Shown one piece after another: positions 21,672-50,973 of a stretch of DNA of 64,000 nucleotides. Position 1 is the first letter of the stretch, and each line of letters starts with the position of its first letter. The notes below the pieces were generated by a model. The model had not been told where the DNA came from. It did not search any database and saw only the letters and a program-made list of their open reading frames with translations. Position numbers and translations under genes: made by a program. This stretch comes from Octopus vulgaris (Eukaryota): NCBI GenBank assembly GCA_951406725.2, contig OX597818.1, positions 146,010,001 to 146,074,000 on the forward strand, given 5' to 3'.

Positions 21672-24692
<3,021 letters not shown>

Positions 24693-25857: not shown

Positions 25858-26053
25858 ATGCTGCCTCGCAAAGTGGCTCATAATGTGGGAAATTCTGCAG
25901 TATTTCGTACCTCTGACATAGCCATAACCGAAGATGTCACATTTGAAGGGTTGTTATTGTCGGACGATGTCCTGAAAGGGCTTCAGAATTCGGGGTTCGT
26001 CAAACCCTCGCCCATCCAGCTCAAGTCCATTCCACTGGGAAGATGTGGTTTAG
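25858..26053 (+). CDS. DDX20: DEAD-box RNA helicase DDX20/Gemin3, exon 1 (Q motif)
   Basis: ATG...RTSDI...[38 protein letters not shown], then G|GTAAG donor (phase 1). Confidence 0.95.
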
Positions 26054-27099
26054 GTAAGCTACGAATTCATTTCGTTATTAACTATTTTTCACACAATACT
26101 TGTCAAATATTTCTTTTTCCTATTATAAAGCAGCACAAAAGATTTCCTAAAGGAACAATGCGTGTTACACGCTTCTCTTCCAGTCACCATAAACAAAAAG
26201 ACCAGCTTGACGAAGGCAAAATTTGAATGCAAAGTTATCAAGTCTCAAACTAAATCCTATGAAACTTAGTTTATCGCTCATCATCAATTCACCCTACTTT
26301 CATCATTTCACGTCCACACGCTGACCTCCGATGAACGGATCCTCATGGTTTTAGTCATTTTTTGTTTGGAATTGGTGCCCTCTTAGCTAAGTCAAAGGAC
26401 CACATTTATCACTCATACACCTATTTAAAAAAAAAATAAATGGATAAAAGTCTGTGGGCTTTTTAGAGGAAGAAATGATGGCATTATGGTACATTGGCAT
26501 TTCCTTTCGTTTTACTTTCATTGTTGAATACTTTTGTTCTTTAAAGCATAATCAGAACTTAACTGCTCCCTGAATTAAAGAAACATTTAAACCAGTTACT
26601 TTTACGAAAAAAGGATCGATGTTTATTAGGTACTTCCGTGGAAATATTTTCACCCATACTCCCAAGTGGTATCCGACTTTTTAATCTTATTATCGATAAA
26701 TAATGCTTCTTTTCATTTAATCGGCGAGTTAACTTACATTTTGGAACATATTGCTATTTTATACTTACATTGAACTGTAAAAAGAGTACACTATATTTAT
26801 ATAAGCTAACGAAGGAATCTTTCTCATAGTTGCTTGACAAGCTAAAAATAGCAGCCAAGTCTCCCTCAAATCATATCCTACTATCTTAAAGATAGAAAAT
26901 TTTATAATGTACATATCCCTAAAAAGTTGTGGTTGTAATGACTGGAATAGCTTTGTGCGTAAACCTAGACCAGTAAGGTTGACTTGAGGCAAAACAGCAA
27001 TGCTATGTTCTGATAGATTTTTATGCAAATTTCTATTATTTCCTGTATTTAAATATTTCAATTTCAACTTTGATCTTTAATTCTTTTTCTTTTCTTTAG

Positions 27100-27194
27100 A
27101 TTTAATTGTCCAAGCCAAAGCTGGAACTGGCAAGACGTGTGTTTTCACTGTGGTTGCTTTAGAAGCACTACAGATCAACAGCCCAGCTATCCAG
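27100..27194 (+). CDS. DDX20: DDX20 exon 2 (motif I / Walker A)
   Basis: Pyrimidine tract + AG; (D)[31 protein letters not shown]; GTAAAA donor, phase 0. Confidence 0.95.
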
Positions 27195-27708
27195 GTAAAA
27201 ATTAAAAATTACCTGCCCTATTTCAAATTACGCTGATTGTAAATTCCTCACTCCATTAACATTTTTGTTGTCATTGTAGATTAAATGTAAACTTTATGGT
27301 AGAAATTGCTGCTGTGTTTAAATTTGATATAAGACAACCGGAAATCACTTTAGCTTAGTACAAAGACATAAGAAGATATCTATTTTTACAGATATCCTAG
27401 ACCTAGTTTGTTATGAAACAAACCAAATGTATTTTAATATCTATTTCTTCAATATTTGAGAAATTTCTATAATTTCTTTTTCCTTGTGGTTTGGGTCTGT
27501 TTCAATATCAGTTATTTGAATGCTTACTTATAATGCTTCTTTACTCATTTTACACAAACTTTTTTTCCACAACAAGCTAGAGGAGGAAGGTCAATGCCTA
27601 TGGCTTATTTGAGAGCTTCTACATGTGAATGCTGATACAAAGTTGCCTGCAAACCTGAAGCCTAGCTTAAATCTTTGCAACCAAGTGGACTCTGCTAATG
27701 TCACTTAA

Positions 27709-27922
27709 CCCTTACATTACCAACCTGGCTGAAACCGGCTCTGAGTACAAATGTCTTGTTTTTATAAGTTTTGAATTAAAATCTTCCCCCATACCTTAGT
27801 CACAATTTATGTTCCTAACACTAGCTGAATGATAATTAAATTATTTTACTAAATTCTTTGTTATATTTAAAGTAATTGAAAGAAACATAGTGCATCTCAT
27901 AATAAATACAGTAACGAAAGGG
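27709..27922 (-). mobile_element. piggyBac-type MITE (family A), DDX20 intron 2
   Basis: TTAA|CCCTTACATTAC...GTAACGAAAGGG|TGAA; reverse-complement homologue of 763-982. Confidence 0.8.
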
Positions 27923-28134
27923 TGAAGAGCCAAGTGAGGGTGTTAAGCTGCCGTGGACTAAGTTTGCCAGCCCAACACAGGAATGGGCCTTCAGACAGCT
28001 TCCAAACAATTTACTTCAGTTACATTTCACTTACAAGGCTTTCATGAAGTGCAAGGTTATCTAAGAAAACTAAGTGCTGCATAGTGGGATTGAACCTGAA
28101 ACCATGTAGTTGGGAATCCTGCCTATGCCAATAA

Positions 28135-28395
28135 CATCATCATCATCATCATCGTTTAACGTCCGTTCTCCATGCTAGCATGGGTTGGACAGTTCGACCG
28201 GGGATCTGGGAAGCCAGAAGGCTGCACCAGGCTCCAGTCTTATCTGGCAATGTTTCTACGGCTGGATGCCCTTCCTAACGCCAACCACTCCGTGAGTGTA
28301 GTGGGTGCTATTTACGTGCCACTTGCACAGGTGCCAGGCGAGGCTGGCAACGGCCACGGTCAGATTGGTGTATTTTATGTGCCACCTGCATGGAA
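28135..28395 (-). mobile_element. 3' tail of RTE-family retroelement (or its partner SINE) with (TGA)n tail
   Basis: (CAT)n-GTTTAACGTCC...CATGCTAGCATGGGTTGGAC...GGATGCCCTTCCTAACGCCAACC; same tail at 28645-29020 and 35545-35740. Confidence 0.65.
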
Positions 28396-28430
28396 GCCAT
28401 TAAATTATTATTGCGATGCTGCTGCATTAA

Positions 28431-28627
28431 CCCTTTAGCTTTCAGATTACTTTGTCAAATCCAGTGTTTATTTATTCACATTGCTTTGAATTATGTTGTA
28501 GCTTTGAGATTTCAGTGATTGTTTGTTTTTAGACTGACATTGTTGGGTAGGGGTGGATCTTGTGAGTTTGCATGTAAAACAGGTAGAATGTTTTGGGCTG
28601 GATATGGCCAGTTTAAATGTTAAAGGG
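28431..28627. mobile_element. piggyBac-type MITE (family B)
   Basis: TTAA|CCCTTTAGC...GTTAAAGGG|TTAA; homologous to 46301-46520 in opposite orientation. Confidence 0.75.
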
Positions 28628-28644
28628 TTAAACATCTTATTATT

Positions 28645-29020
28645 ATCATCATCATCATCATTTAGCATCCCCTTTCCATGCTAGCATGGGTTGGACGGTT
28701 CAACTGGGGTCTGGGGAAGCCAGGAGGCTGCACCAGGCCCAGTCTGATCTGGCAGTGTTTCTACAGCTGGATGCCCTTCCTAATGCCAACCACTCCGTGA
28801 GTGTAGTGGGTGCTTTTTACGTGCCAGGCAAAGCTGGCAACGGCCACGATCGGTTGGTGCTTTTTACGTGCCACCGGCATGGAGGCCAGTCGAGGCGGCG
28901 CTGGCAACGGCCACGTTCGGATGGTTCTTTTGCATGCCACCGGCACTGGTATCACAACTACAATTTCCATTGATTTTTGATCGATTTCGATTTTACTTGC
29001 CTCAACAGGTCTTCGCAAGC
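28645..29020 (-). mobile_element. 3' tail of RTE-family retroelement, second copy
   Basis: Closely similar to 28135-28395, with internal repeats of GCTGGCAACGGCCACG...TTTTACGTGCCACC. Confidence 0.65.
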
Positions 29021-29547
29021 AGAGTAGTTAATGTTTATTACAAGAAATTATTAACTTCAATTTTATTGAAATTATATTTAACTTGATGAAACACTTGTAA
29101 ACTTTGAATTGAAGCCATAATTGAAAATTTTAATAAATATTGTGAAGTTCTATCAATAAGGTTATTTATATATAAAATGTGAATTTTCAGTTATTCATCT
29201 TTAAGGGAGGCAACTCCAGGTAAGTTTAAGTATTAAACTGATAAAGCATACTTCACCATGCTTGCTTAGTGATGAATGAATTACGAAATAGTTATAAAAT
29301 TTTGTATGAATTAGCATGAAAATTAGCATATTTTGTTGATAAATTTGCAGAGAGAAATTACTCAAAGTATTAGTTTTGTATATTTAAAGCAGTTTGAATT
29401 CTCTTGGCATCATAAACTTATAATGAAGAAACTTCAAATGAAGAATTTGTATCCTTGTTATCTGGTGAGCAAAGTAAAAGTTAGGTGTGAAAGAATTGGT
29501 CATCTGCTGTGAGTTAGCGAATGTAGGACTTTTTATATATATATATA

Positions 29548-29920
29548 TGAAGTCTGGTCAATAAGTATCCGGACTGTCACCATAATAATGAAGCTAAAGC
29601 ACGCAGAGCGAAGCCGCTTGGCACAGATTGACATTGAACTCTGTTGTGTATACACACTAAGTTTTTAACGTTCTAGTTCACTTCTGCTGTTTATAGCAGT
29701 GCTTGGAAGGAAGGTGCGTAGCGTGTGATCATTGCATTGACCATGACAGAGAAAGTTGTCATGGCAATACCTGCTCAGAGACCTATGCAAAGTTGCAGAA
29801 AGCGTATGGAGAGGAGTGTGTGAGCCACGCACAAGTGTCCGAGTGGTTCAGACGTTTCCAAGATGGCTGAAAAATGTTGATAGGGACAAACGTTCCGGGA
29901 GACCTGCTACCAGCAGAACA
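29548..29920 (+). mobile_element. Mariner transposon 5' fragment
   Basis: TA|TGAAGTCTGGTCAATAAGTATCCGGACTG terminal repeat and HTH remnant ETYAKLQKAYGEECVSHAQVSEWFRRFQDG...RSGRPATS. Confidence 0.8.
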
Positions 29921-30610
29921 GCAGTTCACCTTTCCTATAGTTTAGAAGTGAACTCCACATAGCTAGTATAATATATACTTATTATTTCACTAGCATCTAC
30001 TAACTAAAATATGTAACAAGGTCAGTTAGTTCTACTAATGAACACATTCCATTCTTTTTTTTATAGTTTAGTGTTAAGCAATAGAAAAACATTCTCCAGC
30101 GATGTGAAATACTTCTCTTGTATGAGTGCCATGAAAAATTCACCCAAAACTCTCTGAAGTGGTTGGCAAGTGAGCAGAGAATGGATAGGGTTGTGAAGTC
30201 TCTTTAGTCTTGTCTCACTGGAAACTATTTAACCTTTCTAATGTTGATTGCATGAAAAAATGCACTGAGTACACTTTGTTGTAAGTGGTTGTCAATAGGG
30301 AGGGCATATACTTGATGACATACACGAACCTCAGTCTTTGGGAACAGCAGTTCCAAATAAGAAATGACTGGTCTGTCATCACTCACCCAACCCATACCAG
30401 CATTAAAAAAACAGACATAAAATGATGATGACATGCAATTATACAAATATGTAAAATGCTAACAAGTATCAGGAGGATCCCCTTTTTTTTTTTTGTCGTC
30501 CCAGAACACAGCACCTCTCTTGTTCAGGTACCACAATAACTACATCCTGTAAAGTGATTTGTGTTTGAAATGACATTCAGTTATAGAAATCTTGTCAAAA
30601 ATAAAACGTA

Positions 30611-31115
30611 CCATAAATCCTCAAATATAATCTGCATTTTTTTCCCAAAATTTAAAGGTCAAAATCCCTAGTGCGTACTATATATGAGGTTAAAAATGAA
30701 AAATAGTTTCTAAGCAATGTCTGAGTCTCTATTTGCTGTCCGGCTATGTTTATTCAGACGCATTTTGTGATGTCGGGCATGAAAATACCTTAAGCTAAGC
30801 CTGAAAGCAATGAAGTCATAAAAGAATCATCCATAACTTGCAGTAAGCAACATTTATTAAAATAAAAGTATTCAGAACACAGAATAACATGTAACAAAAA
30901 CAATTTGCAAACATATTTACATTCCCATATAACAGTTAAGAACATCACCATTATTGTATTACGCATCCGCAGAAGTGTTTGTTCGACTAATTGCTGCTGG
31001 CTTAATTATGCACGACTCAAGTTAGAGAAGGGGTATGTATTATACACAAGGTTTAGGTTTTTCAGAGGTACAGCCCCCTAAAAATCCCCTGCGTATTATA
31101 CTCGAGGATTTGCGA
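30611..31115. mobile_element. Tc1/mariner-superfamily (Tc2/pogo-like) MITE
   Basis: TA|CCATAAATCCTCAAATATAATCTGCA ... TGCGTATTATACTCGAGGATTTGCGA|TA imperfect inverted termini; an internal echo of the TIR lies at ~31035-31055. Confidence 0.65.
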
Positions 31116-31471
31116 TATATGCAAGACATCCTCAACTTGTCTAAGAGGGGAAGTAATTGAATAATAACTGACTAGGTTTATGACAACTCATTCAACTCAT
31201 ACCAGTATCAGAAGTAAATGTAAAGCAATGATGTAAGGTACTTACGGTTGAATGTTAGAGACAGCTGATGTTGTATAATTGATATCTTATATTAATACAA
31301 GCTCATTAATAATAGTGGTATAGTCTACTGCAGAACAATTAATCCAACTAATGTCAGTATTCAAAATAATATTTGCAAACGACTTTGATAATGTTGACAA
31401 TGTTAATACTAAAACCAAAACAAAATTCCTCATATACAAGGTTTTTTAAATAATTTTCTTCAAAACTACAG

Positions 31472-31640
31472 GTCCTTGTCTTGGCTCCAACTCGTGAGAT
31501 TGCATTCCAAATATGGCAGGTGATAACCAGTATTGGTAGCTGTGTAAGTGGCCTCAAGTGTGCCACTTTCATTGGTGGCTTGTCTGTAACTGATGATAAG
31601 AATAATCTGAAGATCTGCCATATAGCAGTTGGAACTCCTG
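31472..31640 (+). CDS. DDX20: DDX20 exon 3 (motif Ia, GG doublet, TPG)
   Basis: CAG acceptor; [56 protein letters not shown](G); GTTGGT donor, phase 1. Confidence 0.95.
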
Positions 31641-32066
31641 GTTGGTAGATTTCGTTTCTTAGATATTGATTTTATTTCTAAATTTGTTTAAATTGATAAA
31701 ATATAAAATTAAAATATTTTTCATTTCTGAGCAATATTTAAAAGGGCTGCTTCTTCATTTCAGTCTTATAGATATTCTCTACTTGCTGAATAAGATGATA
31801 TATCTCAGCTAGTATTCTCAGATGATCCTGTTCTCTGTTCCTTATGCTGGATGAACTGAGGGTTTTATTATTAAGTGTATGGCTAAAAATTAATAATGAA
31901 ATGTTTAAGGCTTCTGGTAGACAAAATGGTGGAGATGGAAACAGGTGAATAGGAGCAGGAGATATATAAAAGAAATCATTTTTGCTTTCTTTCAGTTTAC
32001 TTTATCTTTTAATTAATTCTAATTTTTCTGTGATATTAAAATCATTATACTTTAACTATGTTGTAG

Positions 32067-32178
32067 GAAGAATTAAGTTCTTGATTGAAAAAGGCTACCT
32101 GAGAACCAAAAGTATTCGTTTGTTTGTCCTTGATGAAGCTGACCAGTTATTAGATGAACAGTTCCAAGCAGACATTAA
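32067..32178 (+). CDS. DDX20: DDX20 exon 4 (motif II DEAD)
   Basis: TAG acceptor; (G)[36 protein letters not shown](N); GTGAG donor, phase 2. Confidence 0.95.
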
Positions 32179-33085
32179 GTGAGCTCAGATTTGTTTTTAT
32201 TACATGTTATTTTGTTTGTTTTATTCTTAGTTGTGACTAAATTTTGGCTAAATATAAATGGACACGCAAAGCATTTGCAGTTGTAACCAGCATCTTTTTT
32301 TTCTCTCTTCCAATCATTAAAATTCATCAGAAATGAAAAAAAATAATGATCTTCCACAAAACATTTCAACAACCTCTACTTTAAACTCATTAATACTGTG
32401 CCATCTCTCAGCCTTTTTTTGTAATTCTTACAACGATCTAAATAATTTTTTCCAGTTCAGTTAATAAGAATATAAGCACAGGTGTGGTTGTTTGGTTAAG
32501 AAGTTCTCTTCCCAACCACATGATTTCAGATTCAGTTCTAGCCATAGCTCCTTGGGCAACCATCTTCTACCATAGCCCAGGGTTGACCAAAACCTCATGA
32601 GTGAAGTAAGAAGCAGTAAACTATGTGGAAAGCATCTAAGAACCAAGTAAATGATGTGAAACCAGATGATGGATAAAGTCTACAAGTTTTATTTATTTAT
32701 ATTCATGAGGTCAAAAATAAAATAAAAGGTGGACAGATGGTTGTTAATGGCTTCAAAGCATTTATAAATAAATTATACAAATGTATTTATAAATATAATA
32801 ATATAGAAAGCTGGGAAATAATTCACAGTAGATAGATGAATATTAAGATTTCATACATGAAAATCACAGAAGATTTAAGAGAATTCAAGATAGTCCTTTA
32901 CAGTTATGGGATTTGGTGGTCAGTAGATGCAGCAGTGTTCTTTATGCCTACATATATACATACTAAATTTGGTGTTAGCAAATAACTATGAAATGACATG
33001 TTTTCAAATATTTTTGATAACCTCGTCTGCATTTTATTTCTTTGATAATTTTCTCTGGTTTTCATTTTTTTTTTTTTGTTTTTAG

Positions 33086-33228
33086 TTGGATATATTCAGT
33101 TTTGCCTGAAAATAAACAGATGCTTGCTCTGTCTGCAACTTATCCGGAGTACCTTGCCAAACACTTGATGCATTACATGCGGAACCCTACCTATATCAGA
33201 CTCAATACATCACACTTGGCTTTGTTAG
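33086..33228 (+). CDS. DDX20: DDX20 exon 5 (motif III SAT)
   Basis: Poly-T tract + AG; [47 protein letters not shown](G); GTAAAT donor, phase 1. Confidence 0.95.
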
Positions 33229-34502
33229 GTAAATGGTCCAAAGTTTATCTGGTCTCAAAAATTTCTTATATTTATTGAATATTTTATATGCTTTATTTTT
33301 TGTTTTTGTGCCATTATTTTTTTTATCATTATGAAGACTGGCTTTTCAGTTTGGTCTAGAGCTTGTTCTTTTACTTTCATCTGAACCCTGATTGAGCAGA
33401 ATTATAATCAAAAGCATTCCAACCATGACCAACTATCCTGTCTATACTCAGAATATCTAAGATCACATGAGCCACAGGAAGAGTTGGTACTTGACCTGCT
33501 ATTTCTAAAAGTGTAAGTGACTACACAGAGATGCTCACTTATTGTGTCATAGCCTGTTTGTTCATTCTTTTAACGTCCATCTTCCTCTGCTAACATGGCT
33601 TGGACAAGAATTGATTTGGAGGAGGATTTTAACAGGGGAATGTACCTTTGGTTGTCAACCCTCACTCATTTTTCAGGATTTATATATTCCACGGAAGGCG
33701 AATGGCCTAATGGCTGAGATGTTGTGCTCTCAATCACAAGATCATGGTTTCAATTCCTGATCTGGGCAGTGCATTTTGTTCTGAGGCAAAACACTTTATT
33801 TCTCATTGCTCCAGTCTACATAGCTATAAATGAGTAACTTTGCAATGGGCAGGCAACCACTTCAGAAGGGCTGTTGTGATCTCAGTAACCTTATATGTCA
33901 TGGAAACTGGGTAACTGGCCTGATGAGTCCCAGGACTCAAACAGTAATGCCCATATATTCCACTCTTTGAAAACACAATTTTGACTTGGTCATAATGTAA
34001 ACAAAACCTATCAACATCAATACCACTTTTCTGAAACAGTAGCTAATGAAATATCAATGTTGATATACGTTTGTATACACAATGTAGAAGTGTTATGGCC
34101 TGATGGATAAGGTTTTGGACTATATGTTCATGAACCATGAGTTCAAATCTACTGATATTTTTTGTGCGTGTGAGCAGAATGCAATATTCTACCTGTGCCT
34201 CAGTTTTCTCCCTATTATTTATAAGTTCAAAGTCATTTATTGATCTGATAATGCTCTGTCAAAGATTTAATTTTTCTAGTTGTTTTGTGAATGGACTTTT
34301 GTTCTGATTTACATGCTGTGTGTCAAAGCTGTGCAACCTTTTCTAAATTAAAGTCATTATAAATATATCTACCACTTGATGGGAATTTCCATCATCCATA
34401 ACTATTTCATAATAATTTCAGCATGGTAGTATTATTGTCGTTGAAAATAGGGTGTTGGATTGGCAGAATCATTAAAGCTTCTGACAAACTATTGTATCAT
34501 AA

Positions 34503-35320
34503 TCTATAAAAGGCAGATTGTCTCTGTCTGTGACTGTTTGTTTGCTATACGATTGTACAATATAGAATTTCTTCAATTGGAATTTAGCTATGATTTTTCG
34601 AAGTAGATTTGATTGGGTCATGGCATATAAATTTTTTTCAATTTGTCCCCCAATTAAGCAAAAATTCGATAAAACTCAATATTTTACAATTTGCCTCTCT
34701 CATTTCAACTGGTTTACTCCTTCTATTACCACACTTTCTGCTACTTTCTCTTTGCAAGTGTATACCACTCTCATATCCTCTTTCTACCACTCTTAAAAAT
34801 ACATTCAACATCACACATTCTGCTAGGAAACAGAAAAAAATAAATACATAACAATTTACTCCTCACACACACACATACACGCAAACATATACATATATGA
34901 CAAACACAAACTTTTCAAACAACTACATACAAACAATCAAACACACATACACACACACGTGTGTTTGTTATTAATAAAAAAGGCGCCAAACACAATTCAC
35001 TTTCTCATTCGAACACATTTGCAAACACACACACCAACAATTCAATTTTATTTCCGTACAGACAACATAACACTATCAACCTCATACCACCACAACAACA
35101 TTTTTCTTTATCCTGTCAAAAACTCATTGATCCTATCCCTTTCACCTACGACCTCAGCTAGGTCAGCCGAAAGTCAAATCAACAGAGGATCACCGACAAA
35201 TACATTCATTCGCCGTAAACTTATATCAATATTTGCCTGAATAATCATCATAATTCAGTGCAATCATTAACAGTACTTTCAAGCAATTCAACCCCGAGCA
35301 ATGCCGGGCAATTCTGCTAG
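34503..35320 (+). mobile_element. Non-autonomous Helitron in DDX20 intron 5
   Basis: A|TCTATAAAAGGCAG...TCTGTCTGT 5' end; 3' hairpin CCCGAGCAATGCCGGG followed by CTAG|T. Inserted between A and T with no TSD. Confidence 0.75.
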
Positions 35321-35544
35321 TACTATTATAGTCCTTTACATTCTGAGTTCAATTCTTGCCATGGTGAATTTTGCTTTTCATCACTCTGGAGATAAAGTTC
35401 AACCAAGTATTGAGGGTCAGTATAATTGGCAATACTCAGCACCCACCCCCATACTATACTGGTCAAAATAACTTGTAGTAAACCAAATGTACTGGAACAT
35501 TTTTGCTTTTCTGTTTGCTTCAGTTAACTTTGCCCTGCCAAGAT

Positions 35545-36910
35545 TATCATCATCATCATCATCATTTAATGTCCATTTTCCATGCTAGCATGGGTTGGAC
35601 AGTTTGACTGAAAACTGACAAGCTGGGGGGCTGCACCAGGTTCCAATCTGATTTAACAAGGTTTCTATGGCTCGATGCCCTTCCTAATGCCAATCACTCT
35701 GAGAGTGTAGTAGGTGCCTTTTACATGCCACCGGCATGGCTGCCATTGACCTGACACCAGCATTGGCCACAACTATGGTCTCACTTGGCTTGACAGATCA
35801 ACACAAGCACGGTATATCATCAAAGGTCATGGTCACCTGTCACTGCCTCCATGAGGCCCAATGCTTGAATGATGCTTTTTATGTGCCACCAGCACAGGTG
35901 CTAGTCAGATGGCACTGGCATCAGTCACAACTACAATCTCACTCAGCTTGGTGTCACTGTCTCCATGAGGCCCAACACATGAACAGTGCGTTTTATGTGC
36001 CACCAGCATGGGTGCCACTCAGATGGTAGTTGCATCATCCACAACTATGATTTCACTCAGTTCAACACATCTTCACAAGCAGTCGTCCAACGATTGAAGG
36101 GTGCTTTTAAAGGACCAGTTAAATGACGCTGGCACCAGCCACAACTACAATCTCACTTGGCTTGACAGGTCTTCTCAAACAAGGCATATGTCCAAAAGTC
36201 TCGGTCACTTGTCTCTGTGAGGCCCAACAATCAAAGATTGTGCTTCACCACCTCATCCCATATCTTCCTAGGTTTACCTCTTCCACAGGTTCCCTCTACC
36301 ATTGGAGTGCAACACTTCTTCACACAGTTGTCCTCATCCATAACCATCACATGACCATACCAATGCAGTCGTATCTTTTGCACACCACATCTGATGCTTC
36401 TTATGTTCAACTTTTCTCCCAGGATGCTTACACTCTGTCGCACATGCACACTGACATTACACATCTAGCAGAGCATACTAGCTTCATTTCTTATAAGCCT
36501 GTGCATAACCTCAGCAGTCGCAACCTATGTTTCACTGCCATGTAGCATGGCTTTTGGCACACAGTCGTCATACAGTCTGCCTTTCACTCTGACCAAGAAA
36601 CCCTTTATTACCAACAGAGATAGAAGCTCTATGAACTTTGCCCTGCCTATTCTTGTTCTAGCAGCTATGCTCTCAGAGCATCCATCCCTGCTACTGACTT
36701 GGTCACCTAAGTAACAGAAGCTGGCATGTGATGGAATCTATTTTCTGTACGTTTTTTGTGTTTATTGTACCTGAGCACCTTCCTTACACAAAGTCTATCT
36801 TCCCTGTTAACCTTCTTCTGATATTGCTGCACCTCTTGTGTCCAAAGCTTACACCAGGTACATCTTATGGAGTTTCTACCTATGCCTTTTCTACAGCTCA
36901 AGCAGGGCTA
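35545..36910 (-). mobile_element. 5'-truncated RTE LINE with 3' UTR repeats and (TGA)n tail
   Basis: Minus frames CRKGIGRNSIRCTWCKLW (Cys cluster) and MCNVSVHVRQSVSILGEKLNIRSIRCGVQKIRLHWYGHV...GRGKPRKIWDEVVK, continuous with the tail type seen at 28135. Confidence 0.85.
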
Positions 36911-37058
36911 TCTAACTAAAGGGATTTGCGATTTGTTTGCCTTTCTGCTCACTGGTTAAATAAAACTCGGATAAACTATTGTGATTTATTTATTCTTACT
37001 CTTTTGCACAGCCTTATTAATATTATACATCTTGGACATAAATTGTTTTTGTTTTTAG

Positions 37059-37197
37059 GTATCAAACAATATTATTTGAAGATCCCCTACCACCCACTTG
37101 TGCAAAAAGTTGCTGAGTATAGTGCAAAAGCAGCTATTAAGATTCTCTCTTCAGTAGTGTTTAACCAGTGCCTTGTATTCTCAAACCTTCAATCTGG
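37059..37197 (+). CDS. DDX20: DDX20 exon 6 (motif IV)
   Basis: TAG acceptor; IKQYYLKIPYHPLVQKVAEYSAKAAIKILSSVVFNQCLVFSNLQS(G); GTAAGT donor, phase 2. Confidence 0.93.
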
Positions 37198-37351
37198 GTA
37201 AGTTTCCATGTTTTATAATATTCAAAGAATTTTGTTTTCCTCTTGAAATTTTTCTACAAAAATCAACTACTGAGATAATGGTTATTCTTTGGATTAAGCT
37301 TAATTGATCTTCAAAAGTAAAATCTTTATTCTAAGACATTAACACAAGCTA

Positions 37352-37614
37352 GAAATCTTGGCCAATGTGGGCAAGAAATCTTGAGTCTGGTTGACCTGTA
37401 TAGGTGAAGAATCTTGGCTCTAGTCAGCTGGTATGGTCAACAAATTCTGGTTTTGGTCAATCAATGTTGGCTACAAATCTTGATTGTGTTTGGTTATTGT
37501 AATTGAAGAAGATTAGTTCTGGTAATGGGCATAAAATCTTGACTCTAGTTGGCCATTGTGGGAAAAGAATCTCAGCTTTGGTTGGCCAATGTGGGTAGGA
37601 AAGTTTGGCTCTAG
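37352..37614. repeat. Degenerate ~33-bp minisatellite (about 8 units)
   Basis: Recurring AAATCTTGRCTCTRGTTGGCCAATGTGGGCAAG-like unit in DDX20 intron 6. Confidence 0.6.
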
Positions 37615-37960
37615 AATATTCCATTTAGTGTTGTTGGCTATCAAGTGAAAGAAAATTTTAATATTGTTTATTTAATTCAAATATCAACAAACAACTATAT
37701 CATACTTTACACAATGTTAATGATTATTTTGTAAAACAACTAAATTTTCACTTGGAACCATTTGCTAATTTCCTTTACAACATGCTTTACGATATCATAA
37801 CATTACTTTTCTTTCTCAATCTGAGAGATTTTATACCAAGTAAAATAAAACAGGTACTTCTAGCTGGGATATATGCTATTAACATTAGTTTTATGCCATT
37901 TATAATTGCATTATTCTACTAAAATGACTTGTTTATACGTTTTTCTTTTTAATTCTGCAG

Positions 37961-38102
37961 CGCTCAGAGTTTGGCAGTTCAACTGGAAGAACAAGGTTGG
38001 CCAACTTGCTGTATTGCTGGTTCTTTAGATCAGAAAGAACGTAATGAAGCAATGGCTAGTTTGAAATCATTCCAGTGCCGTGTTTTAGTCTCAACTGATT
38101 TG
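37961..38102 (+). CDS. DDX20: DDX20 exon 7 (QxxR and start of motif V)
   Basis: CTGCAG acceptor; AQSLAVQLEEQGWPTCCIAGSLDQKERNEAMASLKSFQCRVLVSTDL; GTAAGG donor, phase 0. Confidence 0.95.
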
Positions 38103-38984
38103 GTAAGGATTAATTTCATATCACTCTTTTCATGCTCTCCTCTTAAAAAGACAATTCCATTTTAGTTTGACTTTTACTAAGTTCTGCTGGATTAAGTCTC
38201 AGTATATCATTGCAAGCCTACCTGTCCATGATGGCCAAATGTATGTTGGAAAGGATATTTCTTTGGTTTGGTGATTAGCTTTAGCCATTGTTATCTAAGA
38301 ATTTGAACTAAGAACATAGACATCCAGAACATACTGCATTGCTTCTTATCCAAGTGTCTAATAATTCTGGCAGTCTGCCGTCCTTCACCGATAACTTATC
38401 AATCCCAAAATATAAGAATGCAAAGTACACCTCAGTTAAACTTTTACTCAAAACACAGTGCTGCAACAAATACTGTGAAGTAGTTTACCCGACACTTTAA
38501 CGTCTGTGCTCATTCTCTTCCTAAATAAAAAGAATGTCTCTTTTGACTTTATTATATTTATAAAGTAGCAAGTTGGTAGAATTGTTAGCATACTGGACAA
38601 AATTCTTAGCAGCATTTCACCTGGCTTTATGTTCTGAGTTCAAATTCCACCAATGTCAACTTTCATCATTTTGGGGTTAATAAAATAAGTACCAGTTAAG
38701 CCCTGGGGTCAATATAATTGACTTCCCCACCCTCTCAAAATTACTGACTTTGTGCCAAAATAAGAAAGGATTATTATTATTTATGAAGTAGTGAGTTGTA
38801 GAAACGGCTGTAAAAGCTTTAGAATATTTCTGTTGAATTTTAGGCAGCGGATTGGCAGAGTTGTTAGAGTATAAGATAGAATGCCTTGTGGCAGTTATTC
38901 CAACTCTACACCAAGTTCAAATCTTGCTATGATCAACTTTGTCTTTCATTCATTCAGAGTTGATAAAAAAGGGACTAATCTAGA

Positions 38985-39788
38985 AATATGGATTGGTGGA
39001 GTGTTTAGAAACACAATGCCTTCTGCATCCCTAAAAACTGAGGCCATCAACTTCCCTGTAGACGAAATGACCATGACCTTCTTTGGAGCAGGTGGAGAGG
39101 GCATGTTTCCAATGCATGGATTGTCTCTTTGTCTTTGGCTCAAAGTGATGAAACCAACACTCATCCTGGCTTATGAAATTTTCAAATAAACCAGCTAGAT
39201 CTGCTTTAAACAATGTCAGGTTCTGCTGTGATGTGATCAACCTGGTGCACTTTTGATCTGGTATTAGATGTGACACCCACTGAGCAGAAACCTTTGTCAT
39301 ACCAAGTTCATTGTGCAGAATGTTCTCAACTCTCTTAAGGGATATGCTAATAACATTGGCTATTTGATTTAAACTCAATTGCCTGTCACCAATCACCATG
39401 TGGACAACACAATGGTTTCCTCAGTGGTTGCAGGACGTCCAGACTTTGGGTTGTTTTCGAGACTCCTTTCCCCTCCTAAATTCAGCTGCCCACTTTTGCA
39501 CAGGTCATAAAGCTGGTGTATAATCCCCTAATGTCAGCATAGATGTCCTTGGGGGCTACAACTTTTTTCTGCAGGTACTTGATAACACCATGATGCCAAA
39601 TTTTATCCATTTTGAAGAGAAATTGCTACTAGTTACTTCTGAAGTCTCCTTTGAACAGTGAGATGTCAGCTTACCTGTAAAGAAACGGTGCAGTTATTAA
39701 GAAGAGTTGAAATTAATGAATGCAAGATTTTGATATTGTTAGCATCATTCCTTTCTAGTCAGCCTATGAACTTTTCAGCTTGCTCTCA
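38985..39788 (-). mobile_element. Mariner transposon remnant in DDX20 intron 7
   Basis: DRQLSLNQIANVISIS...ILHNELGMTKVSAQWVSHL...QDECWFHHFEPKTKRQSMHW and ...SSTGKLMASVFRDAEGIV are mariner WVPHxL, DExW and KxMASVFWD motifs. TIR-like ...GAACTTTTCAGC...TCATA near 39770-39790. Confidence 0.85.
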
Positions 39789-39900
39789 TAACTGGTCAAA
39801 AATATTCTACTTGACAATATACACGCACTTTATATTGTCACATTTTTTATATATGTATATTGTATCTATTTATATATATTTCCTGTTGATCTCTTTACAG

Positions 39901-40006
39901 ACTTCACGTGGAATTGATGCTGAGAATGTAAATCTTGTGATAAACTTAGACCTGCCAAAAAATCCCAGAGTGTATCTTCATCGTATTGGGCGTGCTGGTC
40001 GATATG
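39901..40006 (+). CDS. DDX20: DDX20 exon 8 (motifs V and VI)
   Basis: TTTACAG acceptor; [35 protein letters not shown](G); GTAAGT donor, phase 1. Confidence 0.95.
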
Positions 40007-42820
40007 GTAAGTCATATTTATGTACACCAAAATTCCACACACATACATTGCTTATGGCATTGTATAGACTGCTTTTGTCTCTTATTTTAAAAGGGACACT
40101 TTATTAATAACTTTAGTATATCATAGAGTAATGCAAATGTTTTGTTGTCACAGCATATAAAACGATGTTATACTCCAAAAAGTGGCAAGGAAGATTTGCT
40201 AAAAGAACCATTCTATATTACAGGGGTCATTCCTGTGAATAGCGATATTTATCCTTATTTATTCCTAAGAAGGTAGATTGGAGGCCCAAAAGCTGAACAT
40301 TTCTATTAAAAAGAAACCCATTGAAGAAAAACTGGTATTTTGTCAGCTTATGATCTGTCTGTCTGTCAAGAGATGGAGTCTGGTTCTGATGCTGACTTTT
40401 TGTCTGTATTAGTTCTTACTGAAAATTAATTTGGCACTGTTACAGTTGCAAAAGTTTACTGTAGTGGAATTTGATAAACAATTCAATATTTAAAATACTG
40501 AGATGAATTATTGTCATGGCATTAATTTTTAATGTATTTTCATACCCTACATGCCAGAGCTTGTTTCTTTACTTCTACCTGCTCTTGTTCCGTCACTCAT
40601 AATATGCTTGTTTCACCTTCTTGGTCAAGGCTTTTTTGTTACTCAAAGACAGGCTTGTTCATCATTCAAAGACACACATTTTATCATTCCAGTTGGGTTT
40701 TTCATTATTTTTCTTTCTAAGGTGTTACAAAATGTGAGAGATGAAGTTTGATATCTCCAAATGTATTTTGTCTTTATCTAGAAACATCAATTAATGTGTG
40801 ATGACTCTTCTACAGTTGATCATTAAGATATCAGAATAATGATAATGTTGAGAATTTTCAGCAGAATTTCCTCTGAAACATCTCAGTAGTAGAGACTGAA
40901 TTTGTTATGATTTTGAGATTTTACCTTCGATACTGCAAAACTCTTGTCAATTATAAGCTTATCTGAGCTGTTATCTGAGCTACTGAAGGTTCAATGTCTT
41001 TGCTAGAGTCATGACATTGTAGTAGTAATTAGATCCAAGCTGTAGATCTCATAAAAGATGTTTAACTTAACAATATGAAGGAAATAAAACAGAATTGATA
41101 GATTTTTGTTCTTTAACTGCCCAACTCAAAATTGCCTCCCTTAAAGTCCACTGCTTGGTAGTTTTGGGGACGATGCACAAGTTAGTCTCTATCGTATTAA
41201 AGGAATGGGAGATAAATATTTCACTGGATAAAGTACTACTATATCATGTGTAGCTTCTCTTGCAGAAAAAAAAATTATTGCTGCATATGAACATCCTAAA
41301 TATTCCCATAAAATATGTACCCTTTTGATTGGCATGGTTTTCTTGACCAGCATATTGCAAACTTTGGCCTACAGGTGTGCTACCCTTTTTAACATTACTA
41401 GTTTGGTCTCTGTTCCTCATGCTTGTTGGTATCAAGCCACTTTTCACCCAGTCCCATCTAAATATCTTGTCTCCTTTATTTTGTCTATGCTGCAGGCCTG
41501 TGATACCTGCTCTTCCCAATTTGTTCCCTCTAAAATTCCCTGTCATGTTAAGTTTTTCTCTGAACCGTTCAAGACAAACCTCATCTGCATTGATATCAGT
41601 TGTCTTGGAGATCTATGAAGATCATAGTTATCGACTCTTTCTCATGACCAAATTTTGACAAACCTATTCCTGAATGATCTAACACTATCTTTTATGAACC
41701 ACAAGCTCCTCTACTAGATGTCTGGTACCCTATTGACTTACTGAAAATATATTATGTGTAGCATGTTTGCTTCTGCTGATTTAACATTGGACCATGTTCT
41801 AGCTGTGGTCACGTCATCTTTATTGTGGAAAAGCTGTTCAAAGAATGTTTAAGGACTTGAATATGATTTGCCATTTTAAAAATTGTTGGGAGATCATTGT
41901 GATAGATTTTGTTGACCAAGTTGGCCTACTACATAGAAATAAAAGAACAATGTAGTTACCATGTCACCCTCAACAATATTGTCTTTCATTATCATGCTGT
42001 AGCAGAGTGATTTATTTTTCATTATAATTCTTTTGATGTCTACTTATATTATTTTACCTCAAAATAGAGATTCTCTTATCAGTTATCTACCCAGTACGGA
42101 TAAGACTTCATGTTGCTGAAGAGGTCTGATGAGACTGAAGCATATTTAAAGTTGTAGCCTGCACTTGCCAACATCAGATATTAGTCGTTGAGCCGTTTTC
42201 TTCTTTTTATTGCATACATACTATTAATGAGATTTTTTTCCTTCAGTATGATGAATATGATGACACTAATTTAACATAGATTTTCCTTTGCTGTATCAAA
42301 TTAACTGAATTTTTTTCATCTTCTTTTTATGTTCTTTAACACTTTCCCAATTTTGTGTGTTGATGGGCCAAATCAAAAGAATATTGGACAAATATCCAAG
42401 AGGTCCATAGTCTGTACCTGGACATTCTGTAAAATGACTAGTGTTAGGAAGAGCATCCAGCCATAAGAAACCATGCCAAAGCAGACAGCAGAGCTTGGTA
42501 CTGTCTTTTGACCTGCTAGTTCCAGTTGATCTGTACAATCCATGCCAGTATGGAAAATGGGCATTGAATGATGATGATAATGATACTGTATATTGTCGAT
42601 TACCAAGATACTTAGCTAGTACTTAGTAGGTACCACAGGTGATACCATTTATCATTGTTAATAGGGGTTGACCTGTGCAGTTGAATGATTCACCAGTGTA
42701 CAATGCTGAATCCAATTTCAACCCTTATCCATGGAAAATTTAGTGATGCCTGACTGGTCACGCTCTGTTATTTTATATACTAACAGTGGCACAGCTGAAG
42801 AATTTCTCTATTTATTTCAG

Positions 42821-42922
42821 GGAGCTATGGTGCTGCAATAACTTTGGTTGCTGGAGATGTTGGCATGAAATGTCTGAAAAAGGTCGAGAGTGTTTGTAAT
42901 ACATCTCTGAAACCACTTCCAG
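42821..42922 (+). CDS. DDX20: DDX20 exon 9
   Basis: TTTCAG acceptor; SYGAAITLVAGDVGMKCLKKVESVCNTSLKPLP(D); GTGAGA donor, phase 1. Joins exon 10 to give the conserved LPDPIP. Confidence 0.92.
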
Positions 42923-44244
42923 GTGAGAAAATCTTCGTTTTTATGATTTTAACTTCCTTCATTGAATTCTTGCTTTTATCTGCCTAATTTTTTCTTGTCT
43001 TTTTTCCATAAGAATTTAACTCTGTTTTGAAAATACAGGAGACTGCAAAAATTGGAACAAAACTAGGCTAATGTATAATTTTTAGGAAAATGAATCATAA
43101 GGATAAGGCCATTACCGATTGGGATGAAGTTACTTTATCTTTTACTTGTTCTGCTCATTGGACTGTGGCCATGCTGGGGCACCACTTCGAAGGGTTTAGT
43201 CTTACAAATCAACACCAGTACTTTTTTCTTTCCCCCTTTTTTTTAGTGTGGTACTTATTCTCCCAGTCTCTTTTGTTGATCCATAAAGTTACAGGAACAT
43301 AAATAAACCATCACTAGTTGTAGAATGGTTGTTGGGTTTGGAGACAAACACAGACATACATACAGTTTCCATCTACTAAATGCACTCATAAGGCATAGAA
43401 GTTATAGAAGACACTTGTTCAAGATGTTGTATAGTGAGATTGAACCTGAAACCACATAATTGCAAAGCGAGCTTTTTAACCATACTGTCATAGACATAAA
43501 TTAAATCCATGTTACTGTAATCAGAATAACCGTAATGCTATTACTGTGTTGGTCCTTTATACTTTTTGCTGTTTTGACTGATATTTTAGAAAACTGATAT
43601 TCTTCGAACCAGTGAGGGAACTTAGAAAAGATGGATTATCCCAGCTAGAACACCTTTAATAATAGCCTGAGCTGATCGAGAGCAAATTGAATTATTGGTC
43701 AAAATAATTCAGTATTAAAATAGTTATTGTGTATCTTAGCTGACCTTAATATCCCTAATTTGTACCCAAGTAAATATTACTTTTCAAATGTTACTCGAAA
43801 TATAAACTCAGGGGAAGTAACTCAGTTTTAAATATTTCAAATGAGGAGAAAAGATGTGGAGAAAAAGAAAACATCCTTCTACAAAGATCACGAAAAAGGG
43901 AAAATAACTTGAAAATATAAAATTTCAATATGTTGACCTGTGTCTGTTTAATATAAGATTATTTTATACATTTCACTTTTAAATCAAAGAGTACAAAAAT
44001 CATGTAGAATAATGAATTCTTTTGTTGGACCAAGACATTATTGGTGGGATTTCAGATGATAAGTTAATATTGAAAAGCATTTTTAGTCTAATACTCTACT
44101 GATTCTTGCAATCTTTTAGTAGTTTGAATATAAAGCAGATGAAGGTATTTTCCCTTGAATTTCTGTAAACAATGAAACTGTTCAAAGAAAAAGAAAAATT
44201 TCTATTTCAGTTATCAACATATTCAAATGAATTTATGGTAATTA

Positions 44245-48707: not shown

Positions 48708-50470
48708 ATCCTATACCACATGAACTTATATCGGAAAAGACCTCTTCTCCAAATGTTTCTCTGGATGATCTTGTTCTCTCAGAAACCATTCCAACTAAGC
48801 AAGACAGAAATTGTAACAACCTGGACACAGAATCTTCTTTAACATCTGTAAAAAATTTCTCAGAAAACAATCCTGTAAAGTATTCCACTCATTCTGATAA
48901 ACTTAATAATCATTCAGTGATTCCATCCCCAGAAATAGAAATGAAATCAAATTCTGATCAAGAATTACAGCATTACTTTTCTGACCAAAATTCCGGGTAT
49001 GTCCACTTGGAAACATCCACGGGTACAGTTTTATTTGAAGCAGAGAAAACTGGAAACAAAGACATAAAAACAAAGGAAACTCGTGAAAGATCTATTAAGC
49101 ACAACAACAAGTGTAATGACAAGATGTCTATAGAACTTTCAGAGTCATCTGAAGTGGGTGAGGGTAACAATAATGGGTCTGAAGAAGCTAAAATTGAAAT
49201 ATTTAAGGTATGTGAAAAACAAGATAGCTCAAATGTTTCTGATGATATTTCATTGAAATATGACCAGTGGAACCAAGGTGGACTTAGTCTAGATACATTG
49301 AATGATACTGAGAGCCATGAACAAAAACCCGAGCCTAAAATTGCATCAGCAAATGATGTTCTATTTCATGAACAGACACACAATGATATTGTTAAATCTA
49401 CAGGTGACCAAGATGAGTGCCATTCACACAGAGACCTGACTGCTGTCATTCCAACAGAAAGCAATGAGGTCCACCAACAAGAACTCAGTCATGTTGCCAA
49501 GGCAACGATTACTGCTGTCGAGACTCACATAGAGAAACATGATACTGCTGCAACGTCAACAGAAAATATTGATGAACTTCTTGTAGAAGAACATATTTCA
49601 GATGTTTCTTGTATTAGAGCTACTAATGGTACTCACCATGTTTTATCAGTAGATGCAGACAATAACCACCACCAAGCATCTATGTCACAAACATCCACAA
49701 GTTCCTGTTTGAACAATCAAGTCGATGGCCTTTGGCCTTGGGGAACAATTCCTCAGTACAAGAAATCAAAAGAAGTTGGTGAATATTCTGAACTTTGTAA
49801 AAAATTCAAGTCTTTCCAAATTAATGACAATGAGCCTAAGTGTGAAAATATAGAATCTCTTATGCCTACAACTGCTCCTTTATGCTTGGAATCGGTCCCA
49901 AATGTAAGTAGCATACTGAACAAATTTTACAGACAATCTTCAGCCAAACTGCTGAATGAAATTTATGATAACCAACCTATCTCTTCCAGTAAGCAGGAAA
50001 GTCAGAACAATGTCAACAACAAGGATAATATCTCCGAGCCAAAAATGTTGTCAGCAGATGGTGAAGAAGCATCTGCTGTGGTGTTGCCTGTAAATGCTGT
50101 GACAAATGTGCAGTGTGCTGAAGAGAACCTTTCCAAAGATGATTGCATTACTGATGATGCTAAAACATTGGTTAATCAGGGTGAAAGACAGCGTTACAAT
50201 TTAGATTTTGAGAAAACTAATACTTCTACCAAATTGCAAGTTTCTTTGAAAAGAGATGAAGTCAGTGGTGAACTTAGTCCAAATGATTCTGTATCTAAAA
50301 TCAAAACTGAGAATCACAAGACACCACGCAATGCAGGCTCTTTGAGGTCTAAGTCAATTGATGTGCCACAGAAGTTTGTTCCTGTAAAGAATAAGAGCAA
50401 CAACTTGAAATTTGGTTCGGTCCGTGTACAACCTGATCGATCGATTAAAGGAGGACTTCTCTTTAAGTGA
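48708..50470 (+). CDS. DDX20: DDX20 exon 10 (terminal), frame as written, ending at TGA
   Basis: TTGTAG acceptor; (D)PIPHELI... long S/E/N/K/T-rich ORF ending QPDRSIKGGLLFK*. Spliced total 988 aa as written. Confidence 0.85.
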
Positions 50471-50897
50471 GGACAGTGATTCTTCAACAACTTCAAATAT
50501 TTCAAGTTCCTATTCAGAAGAAGATGACTTCTCTGAGTCTTCTTCATCATCAGAATACAGTTTTTCTGATTCTCTTTCTTCCATATCCTCAGATGTAAGT
50601 GAGCCATGTCACAAAACTTCTGCTGGCCACAACCCCAGTTTGCCATGGCAATCCCTGACTGGTCATCCTTTATTTTATCCCTCATATCCCTATCATTATA
50701 CATGGGCCAATTGGATGCCCCAAGCTTGTCAGTCAGTTTCACAGAGACCACCTGTGTTACCTGTTCCAAATCCATTTCACTCTCCTCCCACAATTCCACC
50801 TGCTTCATTAACTCAGCAACAATTTGCTCATTCATATTTTCAACAATACAACTACATTCAGTGGATGGTTAGAAATTCTGTTTTGCAGAATAAATAA
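50445..50897 (+). CDS. DDX20: DDX20 probable true C-terminal 150 aa, in +1 frame downstream of a 4-bp duplication
   Basis: LKEDFSLSEDSDSS...HSYFQQYNYIQWMVRNSVLQNK*. Contiguous with the upstream frame if one GATC of GATCGATC (50435-50442) is removed. The Tyr/Trp-rich tail ending YIQWMV resembles the recalled vertebrate DDX20 terminus (...IYLQEMM). Confidence 0.75.
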   Translation, partial: LKEDFSLSEDSDSSTTSNISSSYSEEDDFSESSSSSEYSFSDSLSSISSDVSEPCHKTSAGHNPSLPWQSLTGHPLFYPSYPYHYTWANWMPQACQSVSQRPPVLPVPNPFHSPPTIPPASLTQQQFAHSYFQQYNYIQWMVRNSVLQNK

Positions 50898-50973
50898 ACA
50901 TTTTTTCCTTCTCATCTCTGTCTTGATTACTTGCAAAATGTTTAATAATATTTGGTTCTGTCTGTTTATTAAA
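50889..50973 (+). terminator. Candidate polyadenylation signals for DDX20
   Basis: Overlapping AATAAA at 50889 and 50893 (spanning the TAA of the downstream frame) and ATTAAA at 50968. Confidence 0.35.

What the first reader, a model, noticed from the sequence alone, without database searches (positions are those of the whole stretch)
50429..50475. DDX20 reading frame broken by a GATC duplication (GATCGATC): real allele, recoding site or Hi-C-type artefact
The sequence is CAA CCT GAT CGA TCG ATT AAA GGA GGA CTT CTC TTT AAG TGA. Deleting 4 nt gives CAA CCT GAT CGA TTA AAG GAG GAC TTC..., fusing to a 150-aa frame with a DDX20-like terminus. As written, those 150 aa are replaced by SIKGGLLFK*, in the last exon, so NMD would probably not act. 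GATCGATC is exactly the junction formed by fill-in and religation of a DpnII/MboI site, so contamination of the consensus by Hi-C reads is a strong candidate. Alternatives are a natural slippage allele truncating an essential SMN-complex protein, or +1 ribosomal frameshifting in the overlap (CUC UUU AAG UGA), which is least likely.
Basis: partly seen in the sequence, partly recalled or inferred. Interest (0 to 1): 0.7.

Follow-up and report, generated by a model that had tools for sequence, protein, structure and literature searches.

The report
Private four-letter slip in octopus DDX20
This octopus genome sequence has four extra letters that cut short the essential DDX20 gene, but four public data sets and related species lack them, so it is likely a one-off copying slip in the sequenced animal or an assembly error, and is ordinary.

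Summary
It is not the species' state. 4 of 4 sequencing runs laid on it (four studies; two DNA, two guessed RNA) lack the four letters, and three octopod orthologues read straight through. Recoding is therefore not needed. The Hi-C explanation got no support: in high-copy repeats of the same genome, isolated GATC sites are doubled at 2 of 43,645, against 8 of 126,909 for a non-GATC four-letter unit. The rate rises only where the unit is already partly repeated (3 of 10,684), as it is here (GATCGAT). Best reading: a slippage duplication private to this sequence, a rare heterozygous allele (about 0.5) or a consensus error (about 0.37); Hi-C junction about 0.1. Raw reads of the source animal were not available, so these cannot be split. 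Two public protein models carry the truncated end. Low interest.

The parts
50435..50442 (+). Doubled GATC; four letters more than in all runs laid and than orthologues imply. Lies in GATCGATCGAT (50435-50445), 2.75 units against 1.75 in the uninserted form
50443..50470 (+). Out-of-frame run SIKGGLLFK and premature TGA (50468-50470) of the sequence as written
50445..50897 (+). The 150-residue DDX20 tail and its stop: Ser/acidic stretch, then Pro/aromatic stretch, then a near-invariant end; no Pfam family
48708..50897 (+). Last coding exon of DDX20 (AG acceptor directly before it; no further coding exon needed to match orthologues)
25858..42924 (+). Nine upstream matching blocks of DDX20 (DEAD and Helicase_C core), each matched in one frame

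Best explanation
The four extra letters are a tandem duplication found only in this assembled sequence, likely made by replication slippage at a pre-existing GATCGAT repeat and likely a rare heterozygous allele of the sequenced animal that was carried into the haploid consensus. Shown: the insertion, the frameshift it causes, its absence from four runs and three orthologues, and the lack of GATC-specific doubling elsewhere in the genome. Inferred: slippage as the cause, heterozygosity, and that such an allele would make a 988-aa protein with an intact helicase core and no tail, would probably escape nonsense-mediated decay, and would be masked by the normal 1,129-aa allele.
For: 4 of 4 runs from four studies have one contig across the site and each lacks the four letters. 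O. sinensis and O. bimaculoides read QPDRLKEDF, an unnamed octopod QPDQLKEDL. The lost tail is conserved: 147 of 150 identical to P0006, 131 of 150 to P0010 (last 30 of 30), 117 of 142 aligned to P0003. Doubling in repeats is 4.5-fold more frequent where the unit is already 1.5-fold present (3 of 10,684) than at 1.25-fold (8 of 126,909; Fisher p 0.048), and isolated GATC is not raised (2 of 43,645). Tandem duplication accounts for about 80-90% of short insertions in flies and primates (PMC2374710, passages). The consensus is locally clean: at all 14 substituted places in 801 bases at least one run shares the assembly's letter, and this is the only frame change in the ten matching blocks. Heterozygous Gemin3-null female mice survive, with ovarian defects (PMC3392723, passages).
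Against: No read carrying the insertion was seen: only contigs were available, and they drop minority alleles. A consensus error gives the same picture, and the 0.5 versus 0.37 split is a judgement, not a measurement. The slippage gradient rests on 3 events (p 0.048), two of the 8 control events are identical neighbouring copies, and those 3 are also what a low-rate GATC artefact would give. DDX20 is essential and the tail is conserved, so such an allele should be rare.
Confidence: 0.5

Rival explanations
1. Ordinary consensus error: base-calling, PCR or polishing doubled one unit of the short GATCGAT repeat, and the animal's DDX20 is intact.
For: Absent from 4 of 4 runs, including the best DNA holder at depth 56. 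Essential gene with a conserved tail. Short repeats are where consensus indels arise (own knowledge).
Against: No other assembly-only letter in 801 bases and no other frame change in the gene, so local accuracy is high. Residual errors in accurate assemblies are mostly one-letter homopolymer changes, and a four-letter error in a unique exon is usually corrected by polishing (own knowledge; how this assembly was made is not known here).
Confidence: 0.37
2. Proximity-ligation junction: reads with a filled-in and re-ligated GATC end entered the consensus at this site.
For: The letters are exactly the junction word; it is used as the junction parameter in a scaffolding pipeline (PMC6335429, passage; the fill-in chemistry is own knowledge). 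A random four-letter duplication would seldom be writable as GATC. 3 of 10,684 at a GATC-containing repeat variant against 8 of 126,909 (p 0.048). A low rate is not excluded: the upper 95% bound of 1.7e-4 allows up to about 890 sites among an estimated 5.4 million GATC.
Against: Isolated GATC sites in two repeat families: 0 of 26,738 and 2 of 16,907 doubled, 4.6e-5 against 6.3e-5 for the non-GATC control (Fisher p 1.0); a third family gave 0 (denominator only estimated, 5 copies in a 400-kb sample). All GATC contexts pooled: 5 of 54,329, p 0.55. Isolated GATCGATC is not over-represented beyond control words: observed/expected 0.95-2.63 against 1.50-3.28 for doubled GTAC. Of the first 40 of 13,015 sites, 22 had spanning matches in fetched DNA and none of the printed alignments (up to 8 a site) showed a four-letter gap at the 8-mer.
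Confidence: 0.1
3. A truncation allele that is common or fixed in the source population.
For: Two public models labelled O. vulgaris (P0007, P0008) end in SIKGGLLFK. The tail is low-complexity and the helicase core is untouched.
Against: P0007 and P0008 are 100% identical to the window over all 587 residues of the last exon, so they are very likely modelled from the same DNA and are not independent. Runs X1 and X2, which differ from the window at only 3 of 801 letters, lack the insertion.
Confidence: 0.02
4. Programmed +1 ribosomal frameshifting in the 62-base overlap restores the tail.
For: The two frames overlap from 50409 to 50470.
Against: Two guessed-RNA contigs lack the insertion and orthologues have no break. 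Both polymorphisms in the overlap after the site (50445, 50465) are silent in the downstream frame and change the residue in SIKGGLLFK; 50465 alters the proposed shift site itself. About 20 stop-free codons is unremarkable.
Confidence: 0.01

Closest known systems
DDX20/Gemin3/DP103 of O. sinensis (P0006, 1,129 aa) and O. bimaculoides (P0010, 1,119 aa)
   Same: Same helicase core and long last exon; 555 of 577 and 147 of 150 identical to P0006 before and after the site.
   Different: They have no insertion and keep the 150-residue tail; the window as written gives 988 aa.
Short insertions by tandem duplication (PMC2374710, passages read)
   Same: Four letters with an adjacent exact template, at a partly repeated unit.
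   Different: That work covers fixed non-selected insertions in flies and primates; here the change is in a coding exon and is seen in one assembly only.
DpnII/MboI ligation junction GATCGATC (PMC6335429, one passage)
   Same: Identical eight letters.
   Different: No genome-wide excess at isolated GATC sites; searches (listings only) showed no title or abstract opening that describes such junctions in a consensus.
Programmed +1 frameshift sites such as antizyme, prfB, Ty1 (recalled, no call)
   Same: Overlapping frames with a stop at the end of the first.
   Different: Those breaks are conserved and present in the mRNA; this one is in neither orthologues nor the laid contigs.

Membership tests
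DDX20/Gemin3 | N-terminal DEAD plus Helicase_C core | tested here: met
   PF00270 E 2.1e-37 and PF00271 E 2.2e-26 on orthologue P0001; its core maps to the window at 78-100% by block.
DDX20/Gemin3 | Closest to DDX20 among DEAD-box proteins | tested here: met
   Best of 57 solved-structure matches for P0008 is human DDX20 (2oxc, E 6e-85, 289 bits) ahead of eIF4A (248 bits).
DDX20/Gemin3 | C-terminal tail homologous to that of non-octopod DDX20 | tested here: inconclusive
   Last 90 residues matched only octopod proteins and one unrelated fn3-repeat protein; the tail is described as non-conserved (PMC10608988, passages).
DDX20/Gemin3 | Binds SMN; helicase activity | not testable with these tools
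   Needs bench work.
Hi-C junction artefact | Letters equal the filled-in junction | tested here: met
   GATCGATC at 50435-50442.
Hi-C junction artefact | Doubling enriched at GATC sites across the assembly | tested here: not met
   2 of 43,645 isolated GATC against 8 of 126,909 control, p 1.0; pooled GATC 5 of 54,329, p 0.55. A low rate remains possible.
Hi-C junction artefact | Present only in ligation-library reads of the source animal | not testable with these tools
   Only contigs of coded runs were served, with no library record.
Programmed +1 frameshift | Frame break conserved in orthologues | tested here: not met
   Three octopod orthologues read through.
Programmed +1 frameshift | Break present in the transcript | tested here: not met
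   2 of 2 guessed-RNA contigs lack the four letters; RNA status is the tool's guess.
Programmed +1 frameshift | Shift site constrained | tested here: not met
   Polymorphism at 50465 in 2 of 4 runs changes it and is silent in the downstream frame.
Slippage frameshift allele | Insert has an adjacent exact template in a pre-existing repeat | tested here: met
   GATCGAT becomes GATCGATCGAT.
Slippage frameshift allele | Seen in about half of the individual's raw reads | not testable with these tools
   No raw reads among the runs listed.

The most novel reading that the evidence does not exclude
Proximity-ligation junctions leak into this assembly's consensus at a low rate (at most some hundreds of GATC sites), giving a recognisable class of false four-letter frameshifts that has passed into public protein models, of which this DDX20 site is one.
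Probability: 0.1. Interest if true: 0.35.

Novelty: already known. Interest (0 to 1): 0.07.

Why it matters
Biologically little: the species' DDX20 is intact and there is no recoding. Practically, two public protein models (P0007, P0008) carry the truncated end and should not be read as loss of the tail in this species; the full-length form is 1,129 aa as in O. sinensis. If the allele is real and segregates, carriers would offer a natural test of the octopod-conserved tail; in mammals the C-terminal region is the part that binds partners (PMC10608988, passages).

Tried and rejected
No RNA holder was listed as on record; this says nothing on expression. A second laying of four more runs over the whole last exon did not complete, so the read evidence stays at 4 of the 20 holding runs and 4 of their 8 studies, over 801 bases. 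The protein-atlas look-up of the tail did not complete. Raw genome-wide counts (GATCGATC 20,772, reversed control 25,163) are dominated by microsatellites and repeat variants and were not used; Markov expectations moved about threefold with the order, so they exclude only a gross excess. A hidden paralogue as source of the intact reads is rejected: one match in G000. A small intron that skips the site: many GT-AG pairs could restore the frame on paper (first 40 printed), but the laid contigs show no joint and a plain four-letter difference. P0004 (E 6.4e-6) is an fn3-repeat protein and was dropped. PMC6904755 (passages) concerns N-terminally truncated Gemin3 and was not used. One search (listing) gave no paper on loss of only the last 150 residues. 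Three look-ups of earlier findings returned nothing on this question.

Full report
Observation. The sequence is as quoted. GATCGATC lies at 50435-50442 and is the only one in the window, which chance gives in 17 of 100 shuffles. The upstream frame ends QPDRSIKGGLLFK* at 50470 and the +1 frame 50409-50897 holds the tail. An O. sinensis DDX20 maps to ten blocks from 25858 to 50894, and the only frame change is at this site. With four letters left out the last exon is open for 727 residues, 150 of them after QPDR. The uninserted site is GATCGAT, already 1.75 copies of the unit.

The gene. It is DDX20/Gemin3: DEAD and Helicase_C domains, best solved-structure match human DDX20 among 57, one copy in the genome for the 701 bases searched. 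The tail has no Pfam family, and its last 90 residues found only octopod relatives, plus one unrelated repeat protein, among 1.84 billion representatives and in the word-based search.

Is the break the species' state? No. Twenty runs from eight studies hold the stretch. I laid four, from four studies, on 50100-50900. Each gave one contig across the whole stretch, and each lacks four letters at 50435. Two are guessed RNA; their contigs reach about 2,650 letters upstream of 50100 although the exon starts 1,392 letters upstream, which fits spliced mRNA (inference). Orthologues of O. sinensis, O. bimaculoides and an unnamed octopod read through. The tail is as conserved as the region before it or more: 147 of 150, 131 of 150 and 117 of 142, with the last 30 residues identical in O. 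bimaculoides. Of nine substitutions after the site, five are silent in the downstream frame, including both that fall inside SIKGGLLFK, where they change the residue. This removes the case for +1 recoding. Limit: these are contigs, which drop minority alleles, and none is shown to come from the source animal. The attempt to lay four more runs did not complete.

Two public models labelled O. vulgaris end in SIKGGLLFK. They are identical to the window over all 587 residues of the last exon, so they very likely come from the same DNA and are not independent support.

Testing the Hi-C idea. If ligation junctions had entered the consensus, GATC sites across the assembly should be doubled more often than other four-letter units. 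Raw counts do not show a gross excess: 20,772 against 25,163 for the reversed word; isolated doubles 13,015, with observed/expected 0.95-2.63 by Markov order against 1.50-3.28 for doubled GTAC, 0.45-1.42 for CTAG and 0.61-1.73 for CATG (background from 40 stretches, 400 kb). I fetched the first 40 of the 13,015 sites; 22 had spanning matches in the fetched DNA, mostly repeat copies in which the 8-mer arises by substitution, and no printed alignment showed a four-letter gap at the 8-mer; 18 had no comparator. A sharper test used high-copy repeats. Isolated GATC in two families: 0 of 26,738 and 2 of 16,907 doubled; a third family 0, with an estimated denominator only. Non-GATC control in another family: 8 of 126,909, two of them identical neighbouring copies. 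The rates are 4.6e-5 and 6.3e-5 (Fisher p 1.0). Against my reading: the variant of that family that contains GATC, as 1.5 copies of the unit, is doubled at 3 of 10,684, 4.5-fold above the control (p 0.048). Slippage predicts this, but so would a low-rate artefact; pooled over all three exact GATC contexts the excess vanishes (5 of 54,329, p 0.55). The upper bound still allows about 890 artefact sites genome-wide. So Hi-C is unsupported, not excluded. Three literature searches (listings only) showed no paper describing such junctions in a consensus; PMC6335429 (passages) only uses the word as a junction parameter.

Mechanism. Most likely one unit of GATCGAT was copied twice by slippage. Tandem duplication explains about 80-90% of short insertions in flies and primates (PMC2374710, passages). 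Whether this happened in the animal or in making the consensus cannot be told without raw reads. I lean to a rare heterozygous allele (0.5) because the consensus is otherwise clean here: at all 14 substituted places at least one run shares the assembly's letter, and four-letter errors in unique exons are uncommon after polishing (own knowledge). Gemin3 loss is lethal when homozygous, but heterozygous mice live (PMC3392723, passages). A consensus error is close behind (0.37). Such an allele would give 988 instead of 1,129 residues with the core intact; escape from nonsense-mediated decay is inferred from the last coding exon, and introns in the 3' untranslated region were not tested.

Verdict. 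A real feature of this sequence file, not of the species; an ordinary private indel or error. Interest 0.07. No supplements were consulted. Earlier findings of the scan held nothing on this question.

Noticed in passing
window 49243-49280: A 36-base stretch (12 residues, DISLKYDQWNQG region) is present in the window, in O. sinensis isoforms X1, X3, X4 and in P0003, but absent from O. sinensis isoform X2 and both O. bimaculoides models. No placement has GT-AG ends in the window, so it looks like a lineage deletion or a modelling carry-over, not a normal intron.
   Followed up: partly
window 21673-24690: A 3-kb (ATT)n microsatellite at 94% match, ending about 1.2 kb before the DDX20 start codon; it gives four spurious frames of over 1,000 codons.
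   Followed up: no
window 50100-50900: The four runs fall into two groups: X1 and X2 differ from the window at 3 letters, X16 and X3 at 9 and 8, sharing five changes with each other; this suggests two populations or sibling species under one organism label.
   Followed up: no
L088 and L089 (G000:C1:177900350-177912900): Two stretches about 12 kb apart are 100% identical over 581 bases: a recent tandem or segmental duplicate, or an uncollapsed assembly copy.
   Followed up: no
L036:4926-5133 and L037:4892-5099: An inverted pair 99.5% identical over 208 bases, about 613 kb apart on G000:C1, both holding GATCGATC.
   Followed up: no
P0002, P0005, P0006: Public names of these DDX20 isoforms are wrong or misleading (serine-rich adhesin, ddx54, ddx10) although they belong to the same gene.
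   Followed up: no
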